A stretch of 62,402 nt of DNA from a virus (IMGVR_UViG_3300029219_000144); one strand, 5' to 3'. Shown: positions 2,813-54,575, counted from the first letter of the stretch. Made by a program: numbers and translations. The notes: a model not told the origin generated them from the sequence alone.

Positions 2813-3913
2813 TCACACTGCGCGGAATGCGATTTCGCCAGGTATTACTTCACCTTGCCAATACATTTGGGCAGCAACGCGATCTGCGAGGTCACGATAA
2901 ATAGCCGTAAATTCGCTATCTGGACGACTAATAACGGTTGGTGTTCCGTTATCCAGATCTTCACGAAGAGAGATATGAAGTGGCATTTGGCCTAACAACT
3001 GCGTGTTGTATTTCTCGGCCAGTTTCTGTGCGCCACCGGTGCCAAAAATTGGCTCGTGATGACCGCAGTTACTGCAAATATGCACACTCATGTTTTCGAC
3101 GATACCCAGTACCGGCACTTCGACTTTTTCGAACATCACAATGCCTTTCTTCGCATCGATCAGCGCGATGTCTTGCGGCGTAGTTACCACAACCGCACCA
3201 GTTACAGGAATGTTCTGCGCCAGCGTCAACTGAATATCACCAGTGCCCGGCGGCATATCGAGAACGAGATAGTCCAGATCAGGCCATAGAGTTTCCTGCA
3301 ACATCTGCATCAGCGCCTTGCTGGCCATCGGTCCACGCCACACCATTGCATTGTCGTCGGTGACCAGATAACCAATAGAGTTGGTTGCCAGGCCATGAGA
3401 CATGATAGGTGCCATGTGAGTACCGTCAGGTGAGGTTGGACGTTGGTTTTCCGCGCCCAGCATGGTTGGAATTGATGGACCATAGATATCGGCATCCAAA
3501 ATACCAACTTTCGCACCTTCAGCAGCCAACGCCAGTGCCAGGTTTACCGCCGTGGAGGATTTACCCACGCCGCCCTTGCCTGAGCTGACGGCGATAATGT
3601 TCTTAACGCCATTAATGCCTGGTTGGTTTTTGACGCGCTTAAGCGTGGCAATGTTGTACGACAGCTTCCAGTCAATAGCCTTTGCGCCAGTGATACGGAG
3701 CAGATCACCACTACATTGCTCTTTCAGGTCTTCAAAAGGCTTATTCCACACGAAAGGCATGATTAGTTCGACATGCAGTGTGTCATCCATCAACGCAACA
3801 TGGTGTAACGCTTTAAGCGTAGTCAGGTTGTGTTTCAGGGTTGGGTGCTGAAAATTAGCCAGCGTACCGGCTACCATTGCTCTCAGGGCATCCGGCGATT
3901 TGGACTCGCTCAT
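2813..3913 (-). CDS. apbC: Iron-sulfur cluster carrier ATPase ApbC/Mrp
   Basis: 366-aa ORF with deviant Walker A SGKGGVGKS, CxxC near the C-terminus (CSNCGHHEP); near-identical to E. coli Mrp as recalled. Confidence 0.92.
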   Translation of the reverse strand: MSESKSPDALRAMVAGTLANFQHPTLKHNLTTLKALHHVALMDDTLHVELIMPFVWNKPFEDLKEQCSGDLLRITGAKAIDWKLSYNIATLKRVKNQPGINGVKNIIAVSSGKGGVGKSSTAVNLALALAAEGAKVGILDADIYGPSIPTMLGAENQRPTSPDGTHMAPIMSHGLATNSIGYLVTDDNAMVWRGPMASKALMQMLQETLWPDLDYLVLDMPPGTGDIQLTLAQNIPVTGAVVVTTPQDIALIDAKKGIVMFEKVEVPVLGIVENMSVHICSNCGHHEPIFGTGGAQKLAEKYNTQLLGQMPLHISLREDLDNGTPTVISRPDSEFTAIYRDLADRVAAQMYWQGEVIPGEIAFRAV

Positions 3914-19631: not shown

Positions 19632-19898
19632 ATGACGTTAACCGACAAACAAAAGGACATCATCAAAACGCTCAATCTCGGTTATGAGCGAGGTCATCTA
19701 CTTGATCTGGACGAATTGCTTGAAGTTTTGCCGTACAAGACAACAAAGCAAAGTATCCAGTTCTCAATTCGCGCTCTGATAAAAAAGGGGCTGGTGGAGA
19801 AAGGGCATACGCGCCAACGCAGTGACAATCGCTATCACCGCCGGACTCTTGGGTTAACCACTTTAGGTCGAGCCAAAGCGAAGTTACTGGTGATGTAA
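19632..19898 (+). CDS. small winged-helix-like DNA-binding protein (88 aa)
   Basis: Region KTTKQSIQFSIRALIKKGLVEKGH resembles a recognition helix plus wing; last gene of the operon. Confidence 0.4.
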   Translation: MTLTDKQKDIIKTLNLGYERGHLLDLDELLEVLPYKTTKQSIQFSIRALIKKGLVEKGHTRQRSDNRYHRRTLGLTTLGRAKAKLLVM

Positions 19899-19922
19899 TC
19901 GGTCTGGGAGCTTATTTAAAGA

Positions 19923-19979
19923 CCTGCTTCCGTATATATAAATAATAAGTAACTTATTAAATATATATACGGAAGCAGG
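19923..19979. repeat. 57-bp near-perfect palindromic element (copy 1), CCTGCTTCCGTATATATA..TATATATACGGAAGCAGG
   Basis: 18-bp arms around an AT-rich palindromic core containing ATAAGTAACTTAT; second copy at 52280-52336. Confidence 0.65.
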
Positions 19980-20015
19980 CTTAGTAAGACATGCCAGACC
20001 TAATTAAACACCCCA

Positions 20016-48198: not shown

Positions 48199-48891
48199 AT
48201 GAAGACTCCGAGAGGCATTCGTAATAATAACCCCGGTAATCTTGATAAAGGATCACCGTGGCAAGGTCTGGTTGCGAATCCAGACGAACCGCGCTTTTGC
48301 ACGTTTAAAGACCCTGTTTGGGGGATTCGTGCGCTGGCGGTGACTCTAATTACCTACCACGACAAACGTCGCGCAAAAGACGGCTCAAGTATCGATACCA
48401 TTCGTGAAGTTATTGAACGTTGGGCACCGCCGAATGAAAACAACACTGACGCCTACATTAATGAGGTGTCTAAAGCCGTTGGTGTAACCGCAGACATGAT
48501 CATCGATCTGCATGATTACGACATCCTTCGACCTTTGGTTGAGGCAATCATTCGCCACGAGAATGGCCGAGGCCCGCTAAAAACGCTGAACACCTGGTAT
48601 GCGGCAGAAGTTATTGAGGAAGGTCTGCGTCGAGCTGGCGTTGTTAAGCCGGTGAAAACCGTGAAGGCTGTTCCTGTAACTAAAGAAACCGCAGGCGCAA
48701 CTGTTACAGCAGGTATTGGTCTGGCGCAGCTGGCCGATGTTATGCCGCAGGTTTCCGCTGCTATGGATAAAGCACAAGGTCATATCTCTAGCGGGGATAC
48801 AGTACGCATCATCTTCGGTATTGCCACTATTGTTGTGGCAGGATTCATTGCCTGGTCGCAGGTAAGAAAACACCAGAAAGGGATGGTCTAA
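48199..48891 (+). CDS. putative endolysin-like protein with a C-terminal membrane anchor (230 aa)
   Basis: Conserved-looking N-terminal GIRNNNPGNL motif, C-terminal TM IIFGIATIVVAGFIAW; located between the holin-like and spanin genes. Confidence 0.4.
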   Translation: MKTPRGIRNNNPGNLDKGSPWQGLVANPDEPRFCTFKDPVWGIRALAVTLITYHDKRRAKDGSSIDTIREVIERWAPPNENNTDAYINEVSKAVGVTADMIIDLHDYDILRPLVEAIIRHENGRGPLKTLNTWYAAEVIEEGLRRAGVVKPVKTVKAVPVTKETAGATVTAGIGLAQLADVMPQVSAAMDKAQGHISSGDTVRIIFGIATIVVAGFIAWSQVRKHQKGMV

Positions 48892-48892
48892 T

Positions 48893-49144
48893 ATGCTAGG
48901 CAGCCTGATGACAAAGCTAAAAGTTGCTTTGATTACGCTGGCTGCCGTTCTTTTCGTTCTTGTCGGCGCTTACACGATGGGCGGGAATGCGGCGCGACGA
49001 GCAATGGAAGAGAAGGCAAAACAGGAAGACAGAAAACGACTTCAAAACACAGTGAAAGTGGTGAATGAGACGAGCAGTAAAATACGTCAGAAAGATGCTT
49101 CTGCCGTTCATCGTGAGTTGTATGATAAGTGGGTGCGTCATTAA
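48893..49144 (+). CDS. i-spanin (Rz-like inner-membrane spanin)
   Basis: N-terminal TM (LKVALITLAAVLFVLVGAY) then charged periplasmic domain; o-spanin ORF embedded in another frame. Confidence 0.6.
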   Translation: MLGSLMTKLKVALITLAAVLFVLVGAYTMGGNAARRAMEEKAKQEDRKRLQNTVKVVNETSSKIRQKDASAVHRELYDKWVRH

Positions 49145-49280
49145 ACCACAAACAGCCAGCGTGTTGTTCTGCGATGGGGCTGAGCCTATCTATATCAGCA
49201 ATAATGATGTAATGACTGAAGAAACCGAACGCCAAATCCTTTTTCACAATACGATGGGAGAGAGGGTTTGTGGTTGGTGA
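49065..49280 (+). CDS. o-spanin (Rz1-like outer-membrane lipoprotein)
   Basis: Lipoprotein signal MRRAVKYVRKMLLPFIVSCMISGC with lipobox ISGC; overlaps the i-spanin 3' end out of frame. Confidence 0.55.
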   Translation: MRRAVKYVRKMLLPFIVSCMISGCVIKPQTASVLFCDGAEPIYISNNDVMTEETERQILFHNTMGERVCGW

Positions 49281-49287
49281 TGTCGAA

Positions 49288-49309
49288 GTTCCCCTCAAAT
49301 GAGGGGAAC
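49288..49309. terminator. Bidirectional hairpin between convergent lysis and toxin-antitoxin genes
   Basis: GTTCCCCTC aaat GAGGGGAAC, 9-bp stem. Confidence 0.6.
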
Positions 49310-49312
49310 ACA

Positions 49313-49834
49313 TTATTCTTCGAACAATTTTTCGATAGATTTTGTAGGATAGAACAAAGAACGCTCGTTGTTACCAACCAGCTGGATAAAGCCCAAACTT
49401 TTATAAAACGCCTTGGCTTTGTCATTTAACGCCTCAACGAAAAGTCCATGAATGCCTACAGCAAGAGATGCATTGTACACAACGCGCATTGCATGTGTTA
49501 CAAGCATTGAGCCAAATCCTTGACCTTGAAGGGACTTGTCCAAAGCCAGCCTACCCAAAGTAACACTTGGAACATTCCGATAAGGTACCTTCTTTTGCTG
49601 GCTTCTTGAAGGTAAGGACTCCTTTTCAAAGCAGCTGCCTGACAAAGTGTAATACCCTAACACTTTTGGTCTGTCTTCTTTCGTGAAAAGCACATAAGCG
49701 CGAAGAATTTTTCCCTCATGCTGCCTTTTTAAGTGGTTGGTTAAAAAGGCATTTAGTGATTCTTCACCGCAATCAAAACCATTCAAATCATAATCTTTCT
49801 CTCCAGAGAAAATTTCTATCTTTATATTATCCAC
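49313..49834 (-). CDS. GNAT-family acetyltransferase toxin (TacT/KacT-like)
   Basis: 173-aa GNAT fold with motif-A-like QGQGFGSMLV; immediately downstream of a DUF1778-type antitoxin gene. Confidence 0.7.
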   Translation of the reverse strand: MDNIKIEIFSGEKDYDLNGFDCGEESLNAFLTNHLKRQHEGKILRAYVLFTKEDRPKVLGYYTLSGSCFEKESLPSRSQQKKVPYRNVPSVTLGRLALDKSLQGQGFGSMLVTHAMRVVYNASLAVGIHGLFVEALNDKAKAFYKSLGFIQLVGNNERSLFYPTKSIEKLFEE

Positions 49835-49841
49835 GAGTAAA

Positions 49842-50111
49842 CTACTCCATGCTTTTCAGACGATCAGCAGCTCGTTTCAGCTTGTCGTTCGGTGCCGGAG
49901 GATTGCTTATAGCGTCCATAACCAGATTCCAGGATTCTTCATTCAGAACTAGTCTACGGTGTTGCTCTATAACTTTCACGGCACGTTCAGATGCACTGCT
50001 AACCATAAACTGAGTAATGCTCTGGTTAGACATTGCGGCAGCTTCCTCGATGATGCTTTTATCGTCATCGGTTAATCTCAAATCGATGCGCTGCTTTTTT
50101 AGTGCTGACAT
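49842..50111 (-). CDS. DUF1778-family antitoxin (TacA/KacA-like)
   Basis: 89-aa protein from MSALKKQRIDLRLTDDDKSIIEEAA, RBS AGGAGG 5 nt upstream; ORF-track start 50150 is an upstream extension. Confidence 0.65.
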   Translation of the reverse strand: MSALKKQRIDLRLTDDDKSIIEEAAAMSNQSITQFMVSSASERAVKVIEQHRRLVLNEESWNLVMDAISNPPAPNDKLKRAADRLKSME

Positions 50112-50379
50112 GTATTCCTCCTGATGGCCGTGATGTAGGAAGGCCATCAATCTCCTCTGTTCAAACTGAGTTTTCGACTCAAAAATTACTTTAAAAGGCT
50201 ATAGCCCATTACGTGTGCATTATCAAATTGTGTACGGCATATCACCGTACTTGTAATATAGAGGTCATTGTTACTTTTTTCAACAGACAAATACAAGCTA
50301 TGATTGCCAATTGTTAATCACAACCTACCATTTAACCTTTACACCGCAGCCGTAGGCATTTAGGCTATATCACATATAA

Positions 50380-50394
50380 GAAAACAAGTTGTTT
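50380..50394. promoter_or_regulatory. Palindrome GAAAACAAGTTGTTT (operator family) upstream of parA
   Basis: 35 nt before the ATG at 50430. Confidence 0.5.
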
Positions 50395-50429
50395 CAGACG
50401 ATAATTATATACGCAAAGGGAACTCTCCA

Positions 50430-51098
50430 ATGACCAAGATCTTTGTGGTTGGCGGCACAAAGGGCGGGCCTGGCAAATCCACCGTTGCCCAGCAAATTGC
50501 CGTTTGCCTGAAAGTCAAAAAGAAGAAGAAGGTTTATATTACCGATATAGATATTCAGCGCACGACAACGAGCTGGTGTGAAGACCGTCGACAGAACGAA
50601 GACCTTGAGCTGATTCCTTTTGCATACGTTCAGGATGACATCATTAAGCACCTAAAATCGCTTCAGGGTAGAGCTGAGTTTGTAGTGGTAGATGCTGGTG
50701 GCTTCGACTCCGAAATTCAGCGACAAGCGATGCTGATGGCTGACGTTATCATTATCCCGCTGCGTCCTAAGCGTCGTGATTTGAAATCTTTACGTGACAT
50801 CGATCCTATTATCGACAATGTTCGCAATGTAAACGATAAAGTGAAGGTCCGCGCGGTCATGAACCAGTGCCCGGCTTTGCCATCACAAGTGTCTCGCATT
50901 CTGGCGGCTAAAGAGATTGTCGAGACGTTTGGCATCGAGTCTGCGCCAGTCAATCTATATAACCGCAACGTCTACGATGATGCGGAAGAGTCTGGTCGTT
51001 CTATCTTCGAAATGACCGGTAGCGAGCGCGACAAAAAGGCGGAAGCCGAGTTTGAAGAATTTGTAGATTATCTGTTGAGTCTGGAGGAAGAAGAATAA
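50430..51098 (+). CDS. ParA/ParF-type partition ATPase (small, type Ib-like)
   Basis: Deviant Walker A GGTKGGPGKST in a 222-aa protein. Confidence 0.75.
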   Translation: MTKIFVVGGTKGGPGKSTVAQQIAVCLKVKKKKKVYITDIDIQRTTTSWCEDRRQNEDLELIPFAYVQDDIIKHLKSLQGRAEFVVVDAGGFDSEIQRQAMLMADVIIIPLRPKRRDLKSLRDIDPIIDNVRNVNDKVKVRAVMNQCPALPSQVSRILAAKEIVETFGIESAPVNLYNRNVYDDAEESGRSIFEMTGSERDKKAEAEFEEFVDYLLSLEEEE

Positions 51099-51457
51099 TG
51101 TCCATGAAAATGGGTGACCTAGCAAAGCGCAAAGAGCCTGATGCACCGGCTAAGAACACAACTCCTTTGCGCCAACCAGTCAGACCACAGGGACGCCCGA
51201 CTCGTGGCAAAGAGAAAATTAAAAGCCGCACAATGTCACTGGAAGACGAATACTTCGAACTGCTGGAGATGATGAAGTTCATCCCTCGCTTCGAGAAATT
51301 CACCCGTTCTGACGTGATTCGCGCAGCCATTTTCCATCTGGCAGAGAAGTCACCGCAGGAAATCGAGGACATCGTGAAACTTAACGAGGCAATCACAGCT
51401 GCCGATGTCACGATGCGTACCGATGAAATTAAACGAGAGTTGATGAAGAAAGGTTGA
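51098..51457 (+). CDS. small partition partner protein (ParG/RHH-like, 119 aa)
   Basis: Start overlaps the parA stop; basic N-terminal tail and helix-rich C-terminus. Confidence 0.5.
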   Translation: MSMKMGDLAKRKEPDAPAKNTTPLRQPVRPQGRPTRGKEKIKSRTMSLEDEYFELLEMMKFIPRFEKFTRSDVIRAAIFHLAEKSPQEIEDIVKLNEAITAADVTMRTDEIKRELMKKG

Positions 51458-51501
51458 TAAGAGAAGGCGTGATTAGACGCCTTCTCTTAAAAGGTATATT
51501 T

Positions 51502-52257
51502 ATGCTTTACAAATATGTTGGAAGTAGCGTCCCGGAAGACACAATAAAGTATTTAAAGTATTACTTAGAAGATGGGAAAATTCGAGCAACTCGTCCGAAT
51601 GATTTCAACGATCCTGCCGAGTTTAAAGTTAATTTTGATTATGATGCTGATATAGACGCCATTAAGAAAAGATTTTTTGAGCTTTGGCCTAATCATCACA
51701 ATGATGAATTTGAACGCTGGTTATTGAGTCAAACAGAACATAGTCGCAGTTTTGATAACTATATGATTAGAACAACTTTTCTGCAGTGTCGGGGAGTTAT
51801 TTGTTTGACAAAAAGACCAGATAATTATCTTATGTGGTCGCATTATGCGCATTCTCACTCTGGTTTTTGCATCGGATTTGATGATGGTTTTATAAATGCG
51901 TTTGATGATGGTTTTTTTGTTCGCGGTGAGGTCAAATATTCCTCTGATGTTCCGGTTGTAAATTTTTTTACCGACTCAGATAAAGAGATTGCAGCGGCTC
52001 TTTGCCTAAATAAAAGCGATGTCTGGGAATATGAAGAGGAGGTTAGAATCGTAACCGAGAATTGTGGCGTGAAATTATTTGATAAATCCTTAATTAAGGA
52101 AATAACAATAGGTTGTAAGGCTAGCAGTCAACTTCAAAATTATGTTCATCAACTATTTGATTCAGGTATCGAAATCTACAAAATGAAGTGCCCTCCAGGA
52201 TCGTATAAGCTGGAAAAAATAAGATTAGAGAAAGATACTGATTTTCTTGGATACTAG
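51502..52257 (+). CDS. DUF2971-like protein (252 aa from MLYKY; alternative start 51454)
   Basis: N-terminal LYKY, RPNDFNDPAEF and later SHYAHSHSGFCIGF motifs resemble the DUF2971 family as recalled; AT-rich gene. Confidence 0.5.
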   Translation: MLYKYVGSSVPEDTIKYLKYYLEDGKIRATRPNDFNDPAEFKVNFDYDADIDAIKKRFFELWPNHHNDEFERWLLSQTEHSRSFDNYMIRTTFLQCRGVICLTKRPDNYLMWSHYAHSHSGFCIGFDDGFINAFDDGFFVRGEVKYSSDVPVVNFFTDSDKEIAAALCLNKSDVWEYEEEVRIVTENCGVKLFDKSLIKEITIGCKASSQLQNYVHQLFDSGIEIYKMKCPPGSYKLEKIRLEKDTDFLGY

Positions 52258-52279
52258 TATTGGTAGTATCAACAATTAT

Positions 52280-52336
52280 GACCTGCTTCTGTATATAATA
52301 AGTAAATTAGTATTTATATATATACAGAAGCAGGTC
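52280..52336. repeat. 57-bp palindromic element (copy 2), GACCTGCTTCTGTATATA..TATATACAGAAGCAGGTC, followed by TTTT
   Basis: Arms nearly identical to copy 1 at 19923-19979; core contains TAATAAGTAAATTAGTA. Confidence 0.65.
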
Positions 52337-52450
52337 TTTTAAAGACACCCACCAGAACAAGTCCCTTCCGTTTCCACTTCCAAAAACTGCCACCAGTCGC
52401 TATCATCCGCTCATTGTGATAAGTAAGTAACTACCTACCAGGTGAGCCAC

Positions 52451-53191
52451 ATGAGCCAAATCTTTTTCGATACCATCGACAACGACCAGTACGACTTCAT
52501 GACAGAGTGGAATACCGCTGTTATGGACAAGTGGGTTGCTGAAAACATTGGTTTGTCGCGCTGCAAAGACGAGGCTGAACTGTTTGAGACGAAGTGGTTT
52601 GATTACCGCGATATGCATCCTCTCATGGCCACCTGTCTGTTTACGGAGGCATACAAACGTCAGTACTCAAATATCATGCTGACGCACGGTCGTGAACACT
52701 TTGAAACAGCTCCGTTCACCACCGGGTTAAAACGCTTGCCTTATCAGGAGTTGTCGACTGCTAATAAAACGTCGCTATGGAAAGCACGCCAGTTTGCGGA
52801 TCGCTATTGCTGCTCATACGACTACTTTATCTCCACTGTTCTTTCCGCAGCTGCACGACGTCTGTGGGACAAGCTGCCTCGCCCACAGCATTTGTGGCAG
52901 CCAGAACTGATTGAGATATTTGAAGAGAAATTAGCCAGACGCGCAACAACCCGTCTGGATGACTCTCTGGTTAGCTTTAAGCATATGGGAGACATGCAGT
53001 TCAACCCGATTCAGGAAAGCTATTTTGAGTGGATTCTGGAGCGTTTGCGCACCATCCCTCGCAGTAAGCGCATACGCGCAATTTTCTCCGCTATCTGGCT
53101 AATGGAAATCGTTCCAGAGCGCCTTATTTCCGCCCACTTTCCAGAAGAACTGGAAGAAGCACGGCGGTTTATTGATCCCCTATCTAATTAA
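52451..53191 (+). CDS. hypothetical replication-module protein (246 aa)
   Basis: ORF directly upstream of the DnaB-like helicase; RBS AGGTGA. Confidence 0.5.
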   Translation: MSQIFFDTIDNDQYDFMTEWNTAVMDKWVAENIGLSRCKDEAELFETKWFDYRDMHPLMATCLFTEAYKRQYSNIMLTHGREHFETAPFTTGLKRLPYQELSTANKTSLWKARQFADRYCCSYDYFISTVLSAAARRLWDKLPRPQHLWQPELIEIFEEKLARRATTRLDDSLVSFKHMGDMQFNPIQESYFEWILERLRTIPRSKRIRAIFSAIWLMEIVPERLISAHFPEELEEARRFIDPLSN

Positions 53192-53200
53192 CTAATACTA

Positions 53201-53215
53201 GAAAACAATTTGTTT
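53201..53215. promoter_or_regulatory. Palindrome GAAAACAATTTGTTT (operator family) upstream of the helicase gene
   Basis: 20 nt before the ATG at 53235. Confidence 0.5.
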
Positions 53216-53234
53216 AAAAAACAAAGGAAAGCAC

Positions 53235-54575
53235 ATGACCGAACTTTGCCATACAGGACGCGGGCTGTCCGAAGAGTTTGATGAAGATTTCCAGAACAGA
53301 CTGACGGCATATTTTTGTCGTGATCACGAGTTTCTTACTCGTGCGGGAGATCTGGTTGTGCCTAGCCAATTTGCCAATGCGGCCAATGCCATATTGGTTA
53401 ATATGGTTTCGGGCTATTACCGTATGTACAAGAGCGCGCCCTCTTCATCTGCAATTCTGGATATGCTTAAGCGTGCGAAACGCGATAAGACTATCCGTGA
53501 GGAACTATTCGCCGATGTTGTTGCTGCGTTTAAGCGCATCCTTGCAGAAAAATTGTCCGATACCTCGTACATGGTTGACCAGGTATCAACCTTCGCAAAA
53601 AGCGTAGCGTTTGATGATGCTCTGATTAAGGCTGCTGAACTGAAAGAGAAAGGCGACTTTCAGGGGGCGATGGCAATCATGGCCAAGGTTCAGCAGATTG
53701 GATCGAACGAAGCGACCGGAATCTATGACTACTACACCTCCGCAAGTGAGCGATTGAAAGCGCGTGAATATGAGGCTTCAGAGGAGTATGTACCAAACAG
53801 TATTACAACTGGACTCCCTCTTCTCGATAGGTTGCTGTACCAAAAAGGCTGGGCAAAGCGCGAAATGGTGCTCTTCATGGGGTTCGCTAAATCCGGTAAA
53901 TCGACCGCAATGGGTGAGTTTTCCATAAACGCAACGCTTGCTGGCTACAATGTTCTGTATCTCTCGCTGGAGGTTCACACCACCATTTTATCCGACCGTT
54001 TTGATGCAAGATTGTCGGAGACGGAAATGTCCAAGCTGGTGGAACGGCGCGATGAGGTTCATCGTAAGTTGGCAGAGTTGGGAGCCACGAAGGGGATTGG
54101 TAGTTTGTGGGTTGTTGAGCGTCCGTCAGGAAGTATGTCACCGGCAGACCTGGATCGTATGCTTAACAGCATGAAAGCCAATGGCATGGTGCCTGACATG
54201 GTTGTTGTCGACTACGCAGATTTGATGCGTGCCAGTTATGACCTTCGTGATGATCGCGCCAACATTCGTAGTATCTACACCGATTTACGTGCTCTTTATG
54301 ACAAGCATAACGTTGCTGGTATCACGGCGTCACAAACAAACCGTGAAGGTGGCGCGTCAGAAGTTGCCACAATGATGCACGCTGCCGACAACATCGAAAA
54401 AGTACGTATTGCTGACCTGGTAATAACGATCAACAAAACCGAAGAAGAAGAAGCGAAAGGAGAGGCTCGTCTCTACTTTGCTGGTTCGCGTAACCAGCAG
54501 GGAGGGATCAGCATTCGCGTTAAACAAAACCTCGAACAAATGCGCTTCATTGAGCGAATCTTAGACGTTACCTAA
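53235..54575 (+). CDS. DnaB-like replicative helicase (RecA-fold ATPase)
   Basis: Walker A GFAKSGKST and Walker B-like MVVVDYADL in the C-terminal half of a 446-aa protein. Confidence 0.6.
   Translation: MTELCHTGRGLSEEFDEDFQNRLTAYFCRDHEFLTRAGDLVVPSQFANAANAILVNMVSGYYRMYKSAPSSSAILDMLKRAKRDKTIREELFADVVAAFKRILAEKLSDTSYMVDQVSTFAKSVAFDDALIKAAELKEKGDFQGAMAIMAKVQQIGSNEATGIYDYYTSASERLKAREYEASEEYVPNSITTGLPLLDRLLYQKGWAKREMVLFMGFAKSGKSTAMGEFSINATLAGYNVLYLSLEVHTTILSDRFDARLSETEMSKLVERRDEVHRKLAELGATKGIGSLWVVERPSGSMSPADLDRMLNSMKANGMVPDMVVVDYADLMRASYDLRDDRANIRSIYTDLRALYDKHNVAGITASQTNREGGASEVATMMHAADNIEKVRIADLVITINKTEEEEAKGEARLYFAGSRNQQGGISIRVKQNLEQMRFIERILDVT

What the first reader, a model, noticed from the sequence alone, without database searches (positions are those of the whole stretch)
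49313..52257. Accessory block: GNAT/DUF1778 toxin-antitoxin, ParA/RHH partition pair and a DUF2971-like gene
After the lysis cassette come a convergent TacAT-like pair (GNAT toxin plus DUF1778 antitoxin), a small ParA with an overlapping partner gene, and an AT-rich DUF2971-like gene, ending at the second 57-bp palindromic element. Partition and addiction functions are plasmid-maintenance traits, and DUF2971-like genes are mostly uncharacterised.
Basis: partly seen in the sequence, partly recalled or inferred. Interest (0 to 1): 0.5.

Follow-up and report, generated by a model that had tools for sequence, protein, structure and literature searches.

The report
Plasmid-partition operon flanked by two cargo slots

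Summary
The window is an SSU5-type E. coli phage-plasmid, 98.6-98.9% identical here to phage Cyrano/pLF82 and other plasmids. GNAT, DUF1778, ParA and DUF2971 all pass profile searches. The RHH fold of the ParA partner has only sub-threshold support.

The block is three units, not one accessory island.
- **Cassette A (49281-50322):** an AtaRT/KacAT-type toxin-antitoxin operon. The toxin is 69% identical to AtaT, and the antitoxin 80% to KacA.
- **Core parA-partner operon (50323-51457):** ParF-like, and conserved across the whole SSU5 supergroup with an invariant promoter region.
- **Cassette B (51458-52274):** a single DUF2971 gene (PADLOC PDC-S31) with a confident ADP-ribosyltransferase fold closest to DarT. 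It belongs to the same Pfam family as the validated lactococcal defence gene Aristaios.

Across 84-86 related loci the two slots hold 13 and 23 different fillings, empty ones included. Slot B fillings include the validated defence genes PD-T4-3 and PD-T7-5.

The 57-bp palindrome is a conserved plus-strand intrinsic terminator that forms the right border of slot B.

Novelty is low, because every gene family is known and near-identical records are already annotated. The two-slot architecture is a modest addition that I did not find described in the papers I searched.

The parts
49288..49309 (.). G+C-rich hairpin between the o-spanin (Rz1) gene and the 3' end of the GNAT gene. It is a likely bidirectional terminator at the left edge of cassette A.
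   Evidence: Terminator scan. RNA fold -17.3 kcal/mol on the + strand and -17.0 on the - strand, z -4.5 and -3.9. Homology with relatives that carry other slot-A cargo ends at 49262-49272.
49313..49834 (-). GNAT acetyltransferase toxin of the AtaT/KacT type, 173 aa.
   Evidence: Pfam Acetyltransf_1/7/10 above cut-off. PDB AtaT 6GTS/6AJM E 2e-78 and KacT 5XUN E 1e-74 over the full length; TacT 5FVJ only 6e-11. 69.2% identity to AtaT. The tyrosine at query position 144 aligns with a Tyr in AtaT; that this is the catalytic Tyr is recalled from the AtaT/KacT/TacT literature.
49842..50111 (-). DUF1778 (TacA-family, RHH) antitoxin, 89 aa, 7 bp upstream of the toxin in the same operon.
   Evidence: Pfam TacA1 E 9e-26. 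PDB KacA 5ZGN_A E 7e-42 and AtaR 6AJM_C E 1e-40. 80.5% identity to KacA.
50197..50283 (-). Candidate TA promoter: -35 TTGAAA at 50283-50278 and -10 TATATT at 50260-50255. Operator-like inverted repeats: GTACGG-N7-CCGTAC at 50232-50250, just downstream of the -10, and GGCTATAGCC at 50197-50206.
   Evidence: Promoter scan, 10 of 12 matches. Sequence read directly. Function is inferred by analogy with autoregulated type II TA operons.
50323..50429 (+). Near-invariant upstream region of parA (promoter/operator). It contains the 13-bp palindrome AAACAAGTTGTTT at 50382-50394.
   Evidence: Nearly every column is identical in the window, SSU5, pJN2-26, a Salmonella element and PhiR41_1, whereas the sequence to its left is unalignable. 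The palindrome class is enriched in the window, 26 strand-matches against 3.3 expected. It is kept upstream of parA and dnaB in a distant Klebsiella relative.
50430..51098 (+). Small ParA/ParF-type (type Ib) partition ATPase, 222 aa, with deviant Walker A KGGPGKS at residues 11-17.
   Evidence: Pfam MipZ/AAA_31/CbiA/ParA. phrog_164. NCBIfam ParA_partition 115.7 bits, below the 180-bit cut-off. Nearest solved structures are ParF of TP228 (4DZZ) and a chain deposited as 'ParA' (5U1G), E 1e-10. Motif located.
51098..51457 (+). ParA partner, 119 aa, presumed centromere-binding adaptor. The N-terminal ~45 residues are disordered and basic, with the motif MGDLAK invariant among the 12 closest relatives. 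A probable ribbon-helix-helix core spans 43-84, followed by two further helices.
   Evidence: phrog_5111 only. Alignment invariants. AF2 monomer pLDDT 63, helices 48-60, 70-84, 86-98 and 101-118. Sub-threshold RHH_1 hits in relatives P0147 (E 0.005) and P0155 (E 0.11) at the homologous stretch. Only 18 representatives among 1.84 billion proteins.
51458..51489 (+). Cassette-specific hairpin (13-bp arms, 6-nt loop) directly after the partner stop codon. It has no T-tract.
   Evidence: -21.9 kcal/mol, z -6.5. Most other slot-B cargo types carry a different G+C-rich hairpin at this same position.
51502..52257 (+). DUF2971 protein, 251 aa. ADP-ribosyltransferase fold, PADLOC PDC-S31, candidate single-gene anti-phage (abortive infection) effector.
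52280..52341 (+). Conserved 57-bp hairpin plus TTTT. It is an intrinsic terminator for plus-strand transcripts and the right border of cargo slot B.
   Evidence: RNA fold -33.2 kcal/mol, z -10.5. In 37 distinct variants the non-Watson-Crick positions are G.U wobbles 42 times and mismatches 4 times on the + strand RNA, against 2 and 44 on the - strand. One position covaries T-A / C-G / T.G. About 30 of 37 are followed directly by TTTT. It is kept next to the phrog_2500 gene whatever the cargo, and in empty slots.

Best explanation
The window is part of an SSU5-type E. coli phage-plasmid. The region 49281-52341 is the element's conserved partition operon lying between two recombination-prone cargo slots.

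**Slot A, TA cassette (49281-50322).** It carries an AtaRT/KacAT-type type II toxin-antitoxin operon.
- By homology, the GNAT toxin uses acetyl-CoA to acetylate the amino group of charged tRNA. For AtaT the substrate is initiator Met-tRNAfMet. This blocks translation.
- The DUF1778 antitoxin neutralises the toxin and represses the operon.
- The likely benefit is post-segregational killing of cells that lose the plasmid prophage.

**Core par operon (50323-51457).**
- ParA is a ParF-like deviant-Walker-A ATPase.
- The 119-aa partner probably dimerises through a ribbon-helix-helix core, binds a centromere or operator, and stimulates ParA through its conserved basic N-terminal tail. This would position the plasmid copies (qPCR mean 5.5 per cell for Cyrano) on the nucleoid.

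**Slot B, DUF2971 cassette (51458-52274).**
- It holds a single DUF2971 gene, probably expressed by read-through from the par promoter.
- The protein has a DarT-like ADP-ribosyltransferase fold with the family's Tyr and ExE motifs intact.
- It most likely acts as a phage-triggered NAD+-dependent toxin (abortive infection) that protects the lysogen from other phages.

**Terminator.** The conserved plus-strand hairpin and T-run at 52280-52341 close the unit and insulate the downstream replication genes.

**Shown:** gene identities, folds, motifs, conservation and variability, and the strand bias of the hairpin.
**Inferred:** all biochemical activities, addiction, partition, defence, and read-through expression.
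For: **Identity of the element**
- 98.6% identity to phage Cyrano and 98.4-98.9% to thirteen ~110-kb E. coli plasmids that match the whole query.
- The par core occurs in 264 of 5426 complete E. coli genomes, always on plasmids.

**TA pair**
- Matches to AtaT, KacT, KacA and AtaR at E 2e-78 to 7e-42, with a Tyr aligned at query position 144.
- The gene order is antitoxin then toxin, preceded by a promoter and inverted repeats.

**Partition pair**
- Deviant Walker A and similarity to ParF.
- A one-base gene overlap.
- Protein identity of 83-100% in all relatives, and an invariant upstream region.

**DUF2971**
- PADLOC PDC-S31, E 1e-40.
- Conserved Y115 and E178-x-E180. This matches the published motif description (PMC12522546).
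- Aristaios, a DUF2971 protein, gives an abortive-infection phenotype (PMC11381338).
- A 36% identical homologue lies in P2-like prophages between the tail-fibre assembly gene and the sheath gene. From memory this is the Z/fun defence hot-spot.

**Hot-spots**
- Homology with relatives breaks exactly at the partner stop codon and resumes 5-8 bp before the palindrome.
- Slot B has 23 sequence clusters in 84 loci, including PD-T4-3, PD-T7-5 (E 1.5e-139), KAP NTPase/PDC-S49 and empty slots. Slot A has 13 clusters in 86 loci.
- Distant Klebsiella relatives have both slots empty.
- The cassettes are AT-rich, 41.1% and 35.5% GC against 47.3% for the core.

**Expression**
- In Cyrano lysogens the homologous toxin, antitoxin, partner and DUF2971 genes were transcribed 35x, 60x, 9x and 6x above the local background (PMC9928086).

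**Terminator:**
Against: - No activity was tested for any of the three modules.
- ParA scores below NCBIfam's ParA_partition cut-off (115.7 against 180 bits).
- No iterated centromere repeats were found next to the operon.
- The partner's fold is unproven.
- No antitoxin or immunity gene accompanies DUF2971, so how self-toxicity is avoided is unknown.
- PDC-S31 is only a candidate class, and Aristaios comes from a Gram-positive host. Its sequence relationship to this protein was not measured.
- The hairpin after the partner gene could terminate most transcripts before they reach DUF2971.
- The TA pair could serve phage defence rather than addiction.
Confidence: 0.72

Rival explanations
1. The GNAT/DUF1778 pair is mainly an anti-phage abortive-infection module, or a module for competition between elements, rather than a plasmid-addiction module.
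For: It occupies a variable slot whose alternative fillings are unrelated gene pairs and single genes of unknown function. One of these, a 397-aa protein, has an Rx4H HEPN-like motif by eye. The neighbouring slot is filled with defence genes. The element also carries a second TA pair, HicAB, in Cyrano, so addiction may be redundant.
Against: Neither protein hits PADLOC. I know of no report of AtaRT/KacAT-type pairs giving phage defence, and I did not search for one. The pair is present in 152 of 264 E. coli elements, a frequency that fits a maintenance function.
Confidence: 0.2
2. The ParA/partner pair is not the element's partition system. It would act instead as a regulator or positioning factor for something else, with segregation handled by other genes such as the two ParB-like nuclease-domain genes elsewhere on the element.
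For: ParA is below the NCBIfam equivalog cut-off. No centromere repeat array lies nearby. The partner has no recognised DNA-binding domain above threshold. ParB-like genes exist in Cyrano.
Against: The gene that Cyrano annotates as 'MinD' is an Mrp/NUBPL-type P-loop protein (Pfam ParA/NUBPL, E 2e-102) next to a captured metG, so it is not a partition ATPase. The ParB-like genes lie about 32 kb away in another operon. The parA-partner operon is syntenic and conserved in every relative examined, and is found only on plasmids. It resembles the ParF-ParG arrangement: a small ATPase followed by an overlapping small gene.
Confidence: 0.12
3. The DUF2971 protein is not a defence effector. It could be an anti-defence factor, a superinfection-exclusion factor, or a host-modifying enzyme used by the phage-plasmid itself, for example during lytic growth.
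For: Phage-borne ADP-ribosyltransferases can modify host proteins. This is from my own knowledge (T4 Alt/ModA/ModB). DUF2971 alleles are present in SSU5 itself and in many relatives at this position, so the gene could be a semi-core phage function. No trigger or immunity gene is evident.
Against: It is freely replaced by validated defence genes (PD-T4-3, PD-T7-5), or by nothing, in otherwise near-identical elements. It is transcribed in the lysogen. Family members are found in the P2 prophage slot between the tail-fibre assembly and sheath genes and in PADLOC's defence-island-derived candidate set. One member is experimentally anti-phage.
Confidence: 0.2
4. The block is a single co-inherited accessory island.
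For: The five genes are contiguous, and all five occur together in 14 PLSDB plasmids that cover at least 80% of the query.
Against: The par pair is core. Slot A and slot B fillings recombine independently: this DUF2971 allele occurs with the TA cassette and also with a different slot-A cargo (L026), and PD-T4-3 occurs with at least five slot-A types. In E. coli genomes the TA cassette is in 152 elements and this DUF2971 cassette in 21, out of 264.
Confidence: 0.03

Closest known systems
AtaRT (E. coli O157:H7) and KacAT (Klebsiella pneumoniae), GNAT-RHH type II toxin-antitoxin systems in the same broad family as Salmonella TacAT
   Same: Full-length similarity: toxin 69% identical to AtaT (E 2e-78), antitoxin 80% identical to KacA (E 7e-42). 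A Tyr is aligned at query position 144. The operon order is antitoxin then toxin. Inverted repeats lie at the promoter.
   Different: The pair is carried as swappable cargo on a phage-plasmid, between the lysis genes and parA. TacT proper is only a distant relative (E 6e-11). The substrate tRNA and the toxicity are untested here.
ParF-ParG of plasmid TP228 (type Ib partition; small deviant-Walker-A ATPase plus small RHH centromere-binding protein)
   Same: Small ParA with KGGxGKS. Its best solved relative is ParF (E 1e-10). A small, overlapping downstream gene encodes a protein with a disordered basic N-terminal tail and a helix pattern compatible with RHH.
   Different: It has about 35 extra C-terminal residues forming two helices. 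Its family is confined to SSU5-type elements, with 18 representatives in 1.84 billion proteins. No array of short repeats lies upstream, only one 13-bp palindrome of a class that recurs upstream of about ten other operons.
Aristaios (Lactococcus plasmid pUCCL641, single-gene DUF2971 abortive-infection system), PADLOC candidate PDC-S31, and the DarT toxin of DarTG
   Different: 251 aa against 316 aa, in a Gram-negative phage-plasmid. Identity to Aristaios was not measured. Unlike DarTG there is no macrodomain antitoxin gene. Target, trigger and anti-phage activity are unknown.
[quoted passage not shown] 2022, cited in PMC10879196; PMC13586616)
   Same: Conserved flanks with many alternative cargo genes that are AT-rich and mostly defence-related or unknown. 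Empty sites exist. A DUF2971 homologue lies in P2-like prophages between the tail-fibre assembly and sheath genes.
   Different: There are two slots flanking a partition operon on a plasmid prophage. The right border of slot B is a conserved terminator hairpin. I found no paper describing this locus, but I searched only the held library.

Membership tests
GNAT-RHH type II TA (AtaRT/KacAT/TacAT) | Toxin has a GNAT acetyltransferase fold with an acetyl-CoA binding region | tested here: met
   Pfam Acetyltransf_1/7/10 above cut-offs. Full-length match to the AtaT and KacT crystal-structure sequences.
GNAT-RHH type II TA (AtaRT/KacAT/TacAT) | Catalytic tyrosine conserved (Y144 in AtaT numbering) | tested here: met
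   Query position 144 is Tyr and aligns with a Tyr in AtaT, in the motif A/T-F-Y-K-S-L-G-F. That this residue is catalytic is taken from the AtaT/KacT/TacT literature (own knowledge).
GNAT-RHH type II TA (AtaRT/KacAT/TacAT) | DUF1778 antitoxin gene immediately upstream in the same operon | tested here: met
   TacA1 E 9e-26. KacA E 7e-42. A 7-bp gap, same strand.
GNAT-RHH type II TA (AtaRT/KacAT/TacAT) | Toxicity by acetylation of aminoacyl-tRNA, neutralised by the antitoxin | not testable with these tools
   Requires expression and rescue assays and in-vitro acetylation assays.
GNAT-RHH type II TA (AtaRT/KacAT/TacAT) | Autoregulated promoter with a palindromic operator | tested here: inconclusive
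   A sigma-70-like promoter (10 of 12 matches) with GTACGG-N7-CCGTAC directly downstream of the -10, plus GGCTATAGCC. Binding was not tested.
Type Ib (ParF-like) plasmid partition system | Deviant Walker A (KGGxGK[ST]) in a small ATPase without an N-terminal DNA-binding domain | tested here: met
   KGGPGKS at residues 11-17 in a 222-aa protein. Residues 9-199 align with ParF residues 8-189.
Type Ib (ParF-like) plasmid partition system | Reaches the curated ParA_partition model cut-off (NCBIfam NF041546) | tested here: not met
   115.7 bits against a cut-off of 180. It is a divergent relative, not an equivalog.
Type Ib (ParF-like) plasmid partition system | Small centromere-binding protein gene directly downstream | tested here: met
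   A 119-aa gene overlapping parA by one base. Gene order is conserved in all relatives.
Type Ib (ParF-like) plasmid partition system | The centromere-binding protein has a ribbon-helix-helix fold | tested here: inconclusive
Type Ib (ParF-like) plasmid partition system | Array of short repeats (centromere) beside the operon | tested here: not met
   No iterated repeats in 50100-50440 or 52257-52445. There is only one 13-bp palindrome, of a class dispersed over the element.
Type Ib (ParF-like) plasmid partition system | Stabilises a plasmid | not testable with these tools
   Requires a plasmid-loss assay.
DUF2971 / PADLOC PDC-S31 / Aristaios-like single-gene defence | DUF2971 domain above the Pfam gathering score, and a match to the PDC-S31 models | tested here: met
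   41.9 bits against 22. PDC-S31 E 1e-40 over residues 1-239.
DUF2971 / PADLOC PDC-S31 / Aristaios-like single-gene defence | ADP-ribosyltransferase fold with conserved motif II Tyr and motif III ExE | tested here: met
DUF2971 / PADLOC PDC-S31 / Aristaios-like single-gene defence | Protects against phage when expressed alone | not testable with these tools
   Requires phage challenge. Only Aristaios has been tested (PMC11381338).
DarTG toxin-antitoxin | Adjacent DarG macrodomain antitoxin | tested here: not met
   The cassette 51458-52274 holds one gene, and the neighbours are the ParA partner and a phrog_2500 protein. It works like DarT at most, and is not a DarTG member.
Mobile-element defence hot-spot | Conserved flanks, many unrelated fillings including known defence genes, and empty sites | tested here: met
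   23 clusters in 84 loci for slot B, with PD-T4-3, PD-T7-5, PDC-S49, PDC-S31 and 4 empty sites. 13 clusters in 86 loci for slot A.

The most novel reading that the evidence does not exclude
The two slots flanking the partition operon of SSU5-type phage-plasmids are a compact, terminator-bounded defence/addiction hot-spot. It could be mined for new systems.

Several recurrent fillings have no match in Pfam or PADLOC:
- a 351-374-aa family;
- a pair of a 214-255-aa protein and a 136-174-aa protein that look membrane-associated by eye;
- a 225-aa protein with a lipoprotein-like N-terminus by eye;
- in slot A, a pair of 127-140 aa and 249-258 aa, present in 32 of 86 loci.

The DUF2971 cargo would be an antitoxin-less, DarT-like nucleic-acid ADP-ribosyltransferase that is held inactive until phage infection.
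Probability: 0.4. Interest if true: 0.55.

Novelty: new member of a known kind. Interest (0 to 1): 0.3.

Why it matters
SSU5-type phage-plasmids occur in about 5% of complete E. coli genomes. They are also associated with multidrug-resistant Shigella sonnei and Salmonella Typhi lineages (bioRxiv 10.1101/2025.09.12.675607).

Knowing that their partition operon is bracketed by two swap-in slots gives three practical benefits:
- It explains where these elements keep their addiction and anti-phage cargo.
- It corrects database annotations. The partner gene is labelled 'RelE/ParE toxin' in Cyrano, and an Mrp/NUBPL-type gene is labelled 'MinD'.
- It offers a small, well-delimited locus for finding untested defence genes, and for testing a Gram-negative DUF2971 enzyme.

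Nothing here overturns current understanding.

Tried and rejected
**DUF2971**
- Sequence and profile searches of DUF2971 against PDB sequences gave nothing.

**Partner protein**
- No hit with phmmer or a profile against the PDB.
- No hit in Pfam at E up to 10.
- hhalign against ParG and omega gave probability below 1%.
- An exhaustive profile search found only 18 relatives, so no deeper profile could be built.

**RNA and repeats**
- Rfam on 48500-53500 gave only sub-threshold miRNA-like hits to the hairpin, which are chance matches.
- The search for centromere-type iterated repeats around the par operon found none.

**Ideas rejected**
- That the element's own methionyl-tRNA synthetase is linked to the Met-tRNAfMet-targeting toxin. 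PhiR41_1 has the synthetase but not the TA pair.
- That the 'MinD' gene of Cyrano is a second partition ATPase. It is an Mrp/NUBPL-type protein.
- That the palindrome is a site-specific recombination site. The strand-specific G.U pattern and the T-run point to an RNA terminator instead, and the cargo junctions vary in position.

Full report
**What is there**

The six-frame ORF list shows five genes in 49313-52257:
- a 173-aa gene and an upstream 89-aa gene on the minus strand;
- a 222-aa gene, a 119-aa gene and a 251-aa gene on the plus strand.

Two mechanical ORF starts are over-extensions. The antitoxin begins at ATG 50111, as in KacA/AtaR and RefSeq. The DUF2971 gene begins at ATG 51502, because a 100% identical database protein and most close homologues are 251 aa and homologous cargo genes start MLYKY/MLYKF.

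Upstream lie a gene annotated as holin in Cyrano, an endolysin, and Rz/Rz1 genes. The 57-bp palindrome is at 52280-52336, with a related copy at 19921-19981.

**Where it comes from**

The 3.6-kb region is 98.6% identical to Escherichia phage Cyrano (= pLF82) and 98.4-98.9% identical over its whole length to thirteen ~110-kb non-mobilizable E. coli plasmids. Only the parA-partner part is shared, at 80-87%, with Salmonella phage SSU5 and Klebsiella phage-plasmids. The window is therefore part of an SSU5-type phage-plasmid.

In complete E. coli genomes:
- the par core occurs in 264 of 5426, always on plasmids;
- the TA cassette occurs in 152;
- this DUF2971 cassette occurs in 21, all at least 99% identical, one of them interrupted by IS1.

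**Domain checks**

- **Toxin.** It passes the Pfam GNAT models and matches the AtaT and KacT structure sequences over the full length (E 2e-78 and 1e-74). Identity to AtaT is 69%, with a Tyr aligned at query position 144. TacT itself is a distant relative at 6e-11.
- **Antitoxin.** Pfam TacA1/DUF1778 (E 9e-26), and 80% identical to KacA.
- **ParA.** It has the deviant Walker A KGGPGKS. Its nearest solved relative is ParF of TP228 (E 1e-10). It scores below NCBIfam's ParA_partition cut-off.
- **Partner.** It belongs only to phrog_5111. Cyrano's label 'RelE/ParE putative toxin' has no support in any search.
- **Last gene.** It passes Pfam DUF2971 and matches the PADLOC candidate PDC-S31 at E 1e-40.

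**The partner protein**

An exhaustive profile search found only 18 representatives among 1.84 billion proteins, so the family is essentially confined to these elements.

Alignments show the following:
- an N-terminal MGDLAK motif, invariant among the 12 closest relatives and degenerate in more distant ones, in a disordered basic tail;
- conserved stretches RTMS-EDE (44-51) and FTRSDVIRAAI (68-78), with R44, S47, E49, R70, D72 and R75 invariant even in the distant relatives;
- two further helices.

The monomer model is poor (pLDDT 63). It places helices at 48-60 and 70-84 after an extended segment, which is compatible with a ribbon-helix-helix core.

Direct tests failed for the window protein. 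Two divergent relatives give sub-threshold RHH_1 hits at exactly this stretch (E 0.005 and 0.11), and NCBIfam gives a weak hit to aCcr1, which I recall as an RHH family. I regard RHH as likely but unproven.

**DUF2971**

With 49 homologues, AlphaFold gave a confident model (pLDDT 95.6, pTM 0.90).

- Foldseek found nothing.
- Y115 and E178 are invariant and E180 near-invariant across the 49 homologues. This matches the published description of DUF2971 as a DarT/AbiGi-like transferase family with a strictly conserved Tyr and an ExE motif (PMC12522546).
- A lactococcal plasmid DUF2971 protein, Aristaios, protects against phages as a single gene with an abortive-infection phenotype (PMC11381338).
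- A 36% identical E. coli homologue lies in P2-like prophages between the tail-fibre assembly gene and the sheath gene. From my own knowledge this is the Z/fun defence hot-spot.
- A 50% identical Serratia homologue lies in an integrase-bounded island with CbtA/CbeA, PIN and antirestriction genes.

**Three units, not one block**

Comparison with relatives that lack the DUF2971 gene shows homology stopping at the partner's stop codon (51455-51459) and resuming at 52272-52275, 5-8 bp before the palindrome. On the other side, homology stops at 49262-49272, near the end of Rz1, and resumes at 50323.

I fetched 80 IMG/VR loci that encode the partner and added eight annotated relatives.

Slot B, from the partner gene to the phrog_2500 gene, falls into 23 sequence clusters in 84 loci:

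| Slot B filling | Loci |
|---|---|
| PD-T4-3 (GIY-YIG) | 27 |
| DUF2971 alleles, in 8 clusters at 26-98% identity and both orientations, sometimes stacked with PD-T7-5 or another gene | 24 |
| Unknown 351-374-aa family alone | 15 |
| KAP NTPase (PDC-S49) | 7 |
| Unknown protein pair with membrane-like sequences (by eye) alone | 5 |
| PD-T7-5 alone | 1 |
| 225-aa protein with a lipoprotein-like N-terminus (by eye) | 1 |
| Empty (192-208 bp) | 4 |

Slot A, from Rz to parA, falls into 13 clusters in 86 loci:

| Slot A filling | Loci |
|---|---|
| GNAT/DUF1778 pair (two clusters, 64% identical) | 46 |
| Unknown pair of 127-140 aa and 249-258 aa | 32 |
| Unknown 183-194-aa gene | 5 |
| Unknown 397-403-aa gene | 2 |
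| Empty | 1 |

Further points:
- Fillings of the two slots combine freely.
- Across SSU5, Salmonella and Klebsiella relatives, ParA, the partner and DnaB are 83-97% identical to the window's proteins, while the DUF2971 alleles in the same slot are only 46-52% identical.
- More distant Klebsiella relatives have both slots empty.
- Both cassettes are AT-rich relative to the core.

**Regulatory elements**

The 105 bp upstream of parA are almost invariant across the supergroup. They contain AAACAAGTTGTTT, one member of a palindrome class found about 11 times in the window. Most copies lie a few tens of bases upstream of start codons, behind a shared TAAT-rich/ATAAGA context. The class is retained upstream of parA and dnaB in the distant Klebsiella relative. 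Which protein binds it is unknown. No centromere-type repeat array was found.

The 57-bp palindrome is kept next to the phrog_2500 gene whatever the cargo, and in empty slots. Among 37 distinct variants:
- stem positions that are not Watson-Crick are G.U wobbles 42 times and mismatches 4 times on the plus-strand RNA;
- on the minus strand they are wobbles 2 times and mismatches 44 times;
- one position covaries;
- about 30 variants are followed directly by TTTT;
- the plus-strand fold is the more stable in 31 of 37.

This is the signature of a plus-strand intrinsic terminator. In the window it folds at -33.2 kcal/mol, z -10.5.

Most cargo types bring their own different G+C-rich hairpin directly after the partner stop. 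In the window this hairpin is at 51458-51489 and lacks a T-run. Only 12 bp separate it from the DUF2971 start, so read-through from the par promoter is the simplest route to expression. In Cyrano lysogens the partner and DUF2971 homologues were transcribed at similar levels (9x and 6x over background), and the TA genes at 35x and 60x (PMC9928086).

**Mechanism and novelty**

The functional statements are inferences from homology:
- tRNA acetylation and addiction, for the TA pair;
- ParF-like nucleoid-ratchet partition;
- NAD+-dependent, phage-triggered abortive infection, for DUF2971.

Every gene family is known, and near-identical sequences are already deposited and annotated. The finding as given is therefore ordinary.

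The added value is the two-slot architecture around a core partition operon, the terminator reading of the palindrome, and some annotation corrections. I found no description of this locus in the papers searched, but that library is incomplete.

Noticed in passing
window 6189, 6240, 7555, 8750, 9234, 10137, 10901, 20018, 20043, 50382, 53203: A 13-bp palindrome AAACAA-N-TTGTTT recurs about 11 times, 26 strand-matches against 3.3 expected. Most copies lie 10-50 bp upstream of a start codon, behind a shared 'TAAT..A..ATAAGA' context. The genes include parA and the DnaB-like helicase. It looks like the operator or promoter signature of one regulon of the phage-plasmid. It is conserved upstream of parA and dnaB in a distant Klebsiella relative (L091 5289 and 7453). 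The binding protein is unknown; the ParA partner is one candidate.
   Followed up: partly
window 19921-19981: The first copy of the ~60-bp hairpin element folds at -38.3 kcal/mol, z -10.7. It lies after a small DNA-binding-protein gene (19632-19898) and before two of the 13-bp palindromes. It is preceded by GGTCTGGGAGCTT, a motif that also precedes the slot-B terminator in many relatives (GGTCTGGCAGCTTCAATCAGA) and in empty slots. Unlike the second copy it is not followed by a T-run.
   Followed up: partly
window 2813-3913 (-) and 3942/4071-6104 (+): The element carries a full-length methionyl-tRNA synthetase (tRNA-synt_1g, E 5e-166, plus the tRNA_bind domain). Next to it, divergently oriented, is an Mrp/NUBPL-type P-loop gene (E 2e-102), which Cyrano annotates as 'MinD'. 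This is the arrangement I recall for metG-mrp on the E. coli chromosome, so it looks like a captured host fragment. It is present in E. coli-clade elements, including one without the TA pair, and gave no hit in SSU5.
   Followed up: partly
L004 4018-5091 (-), L058, L060 and L005 slot B; L007 5634-6678: Recurrent slot-B cargo without any Pfam or PADLOC match. One is a 351-374-aa family (62-97% identical among alleles, always on the minus strand). The other is a two-gene module of a 214-255-aa protein and a 136-174-aa protein that look membrane-associated by eye, translationally coupled to the partner gene in SSU5 itself. Both are candidates for untested defence or exclusion functions.
   Followed up: no
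L025, L007, L011, L009 and L015 slot A; L067 and L064 slot A: The commonest alternative to the TA pair in slot A is a plus-strand pair of 127-140 aa and 249-258 aa (28-80% identical among alleles, 32 of 86 loci) with no family match. It may be a different TA or defence pair. A 397-403-aa minus-strand cargo has an R-x4-H (HEPN-like) motif near its C-terminus, noted by eye only.
   Followed up: no
L093-L095 8001-8726: A DUF2971 homologue, 36% identical, sits in E. coli P2-like prophages between the tail-fibre assembly gene and the tail-sheath gene. From memory this is the P2 Z/fun hot-spot.
   Followed up: partly
NZ_JBQRBK010000004.1 (hit H52): In one E. coli plasmid this DUF2971 gene is interrupted by an IS1A insertion, which may be inactivation of a costly gene.
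   Followed up: no
window 49313-49834 compared with 49842-50111 in relatives L001-L004: Among near-identical E. coli elements the antitoxin is 100% conserved, while the toxin varies (95-98% identity).
   Followed up: no
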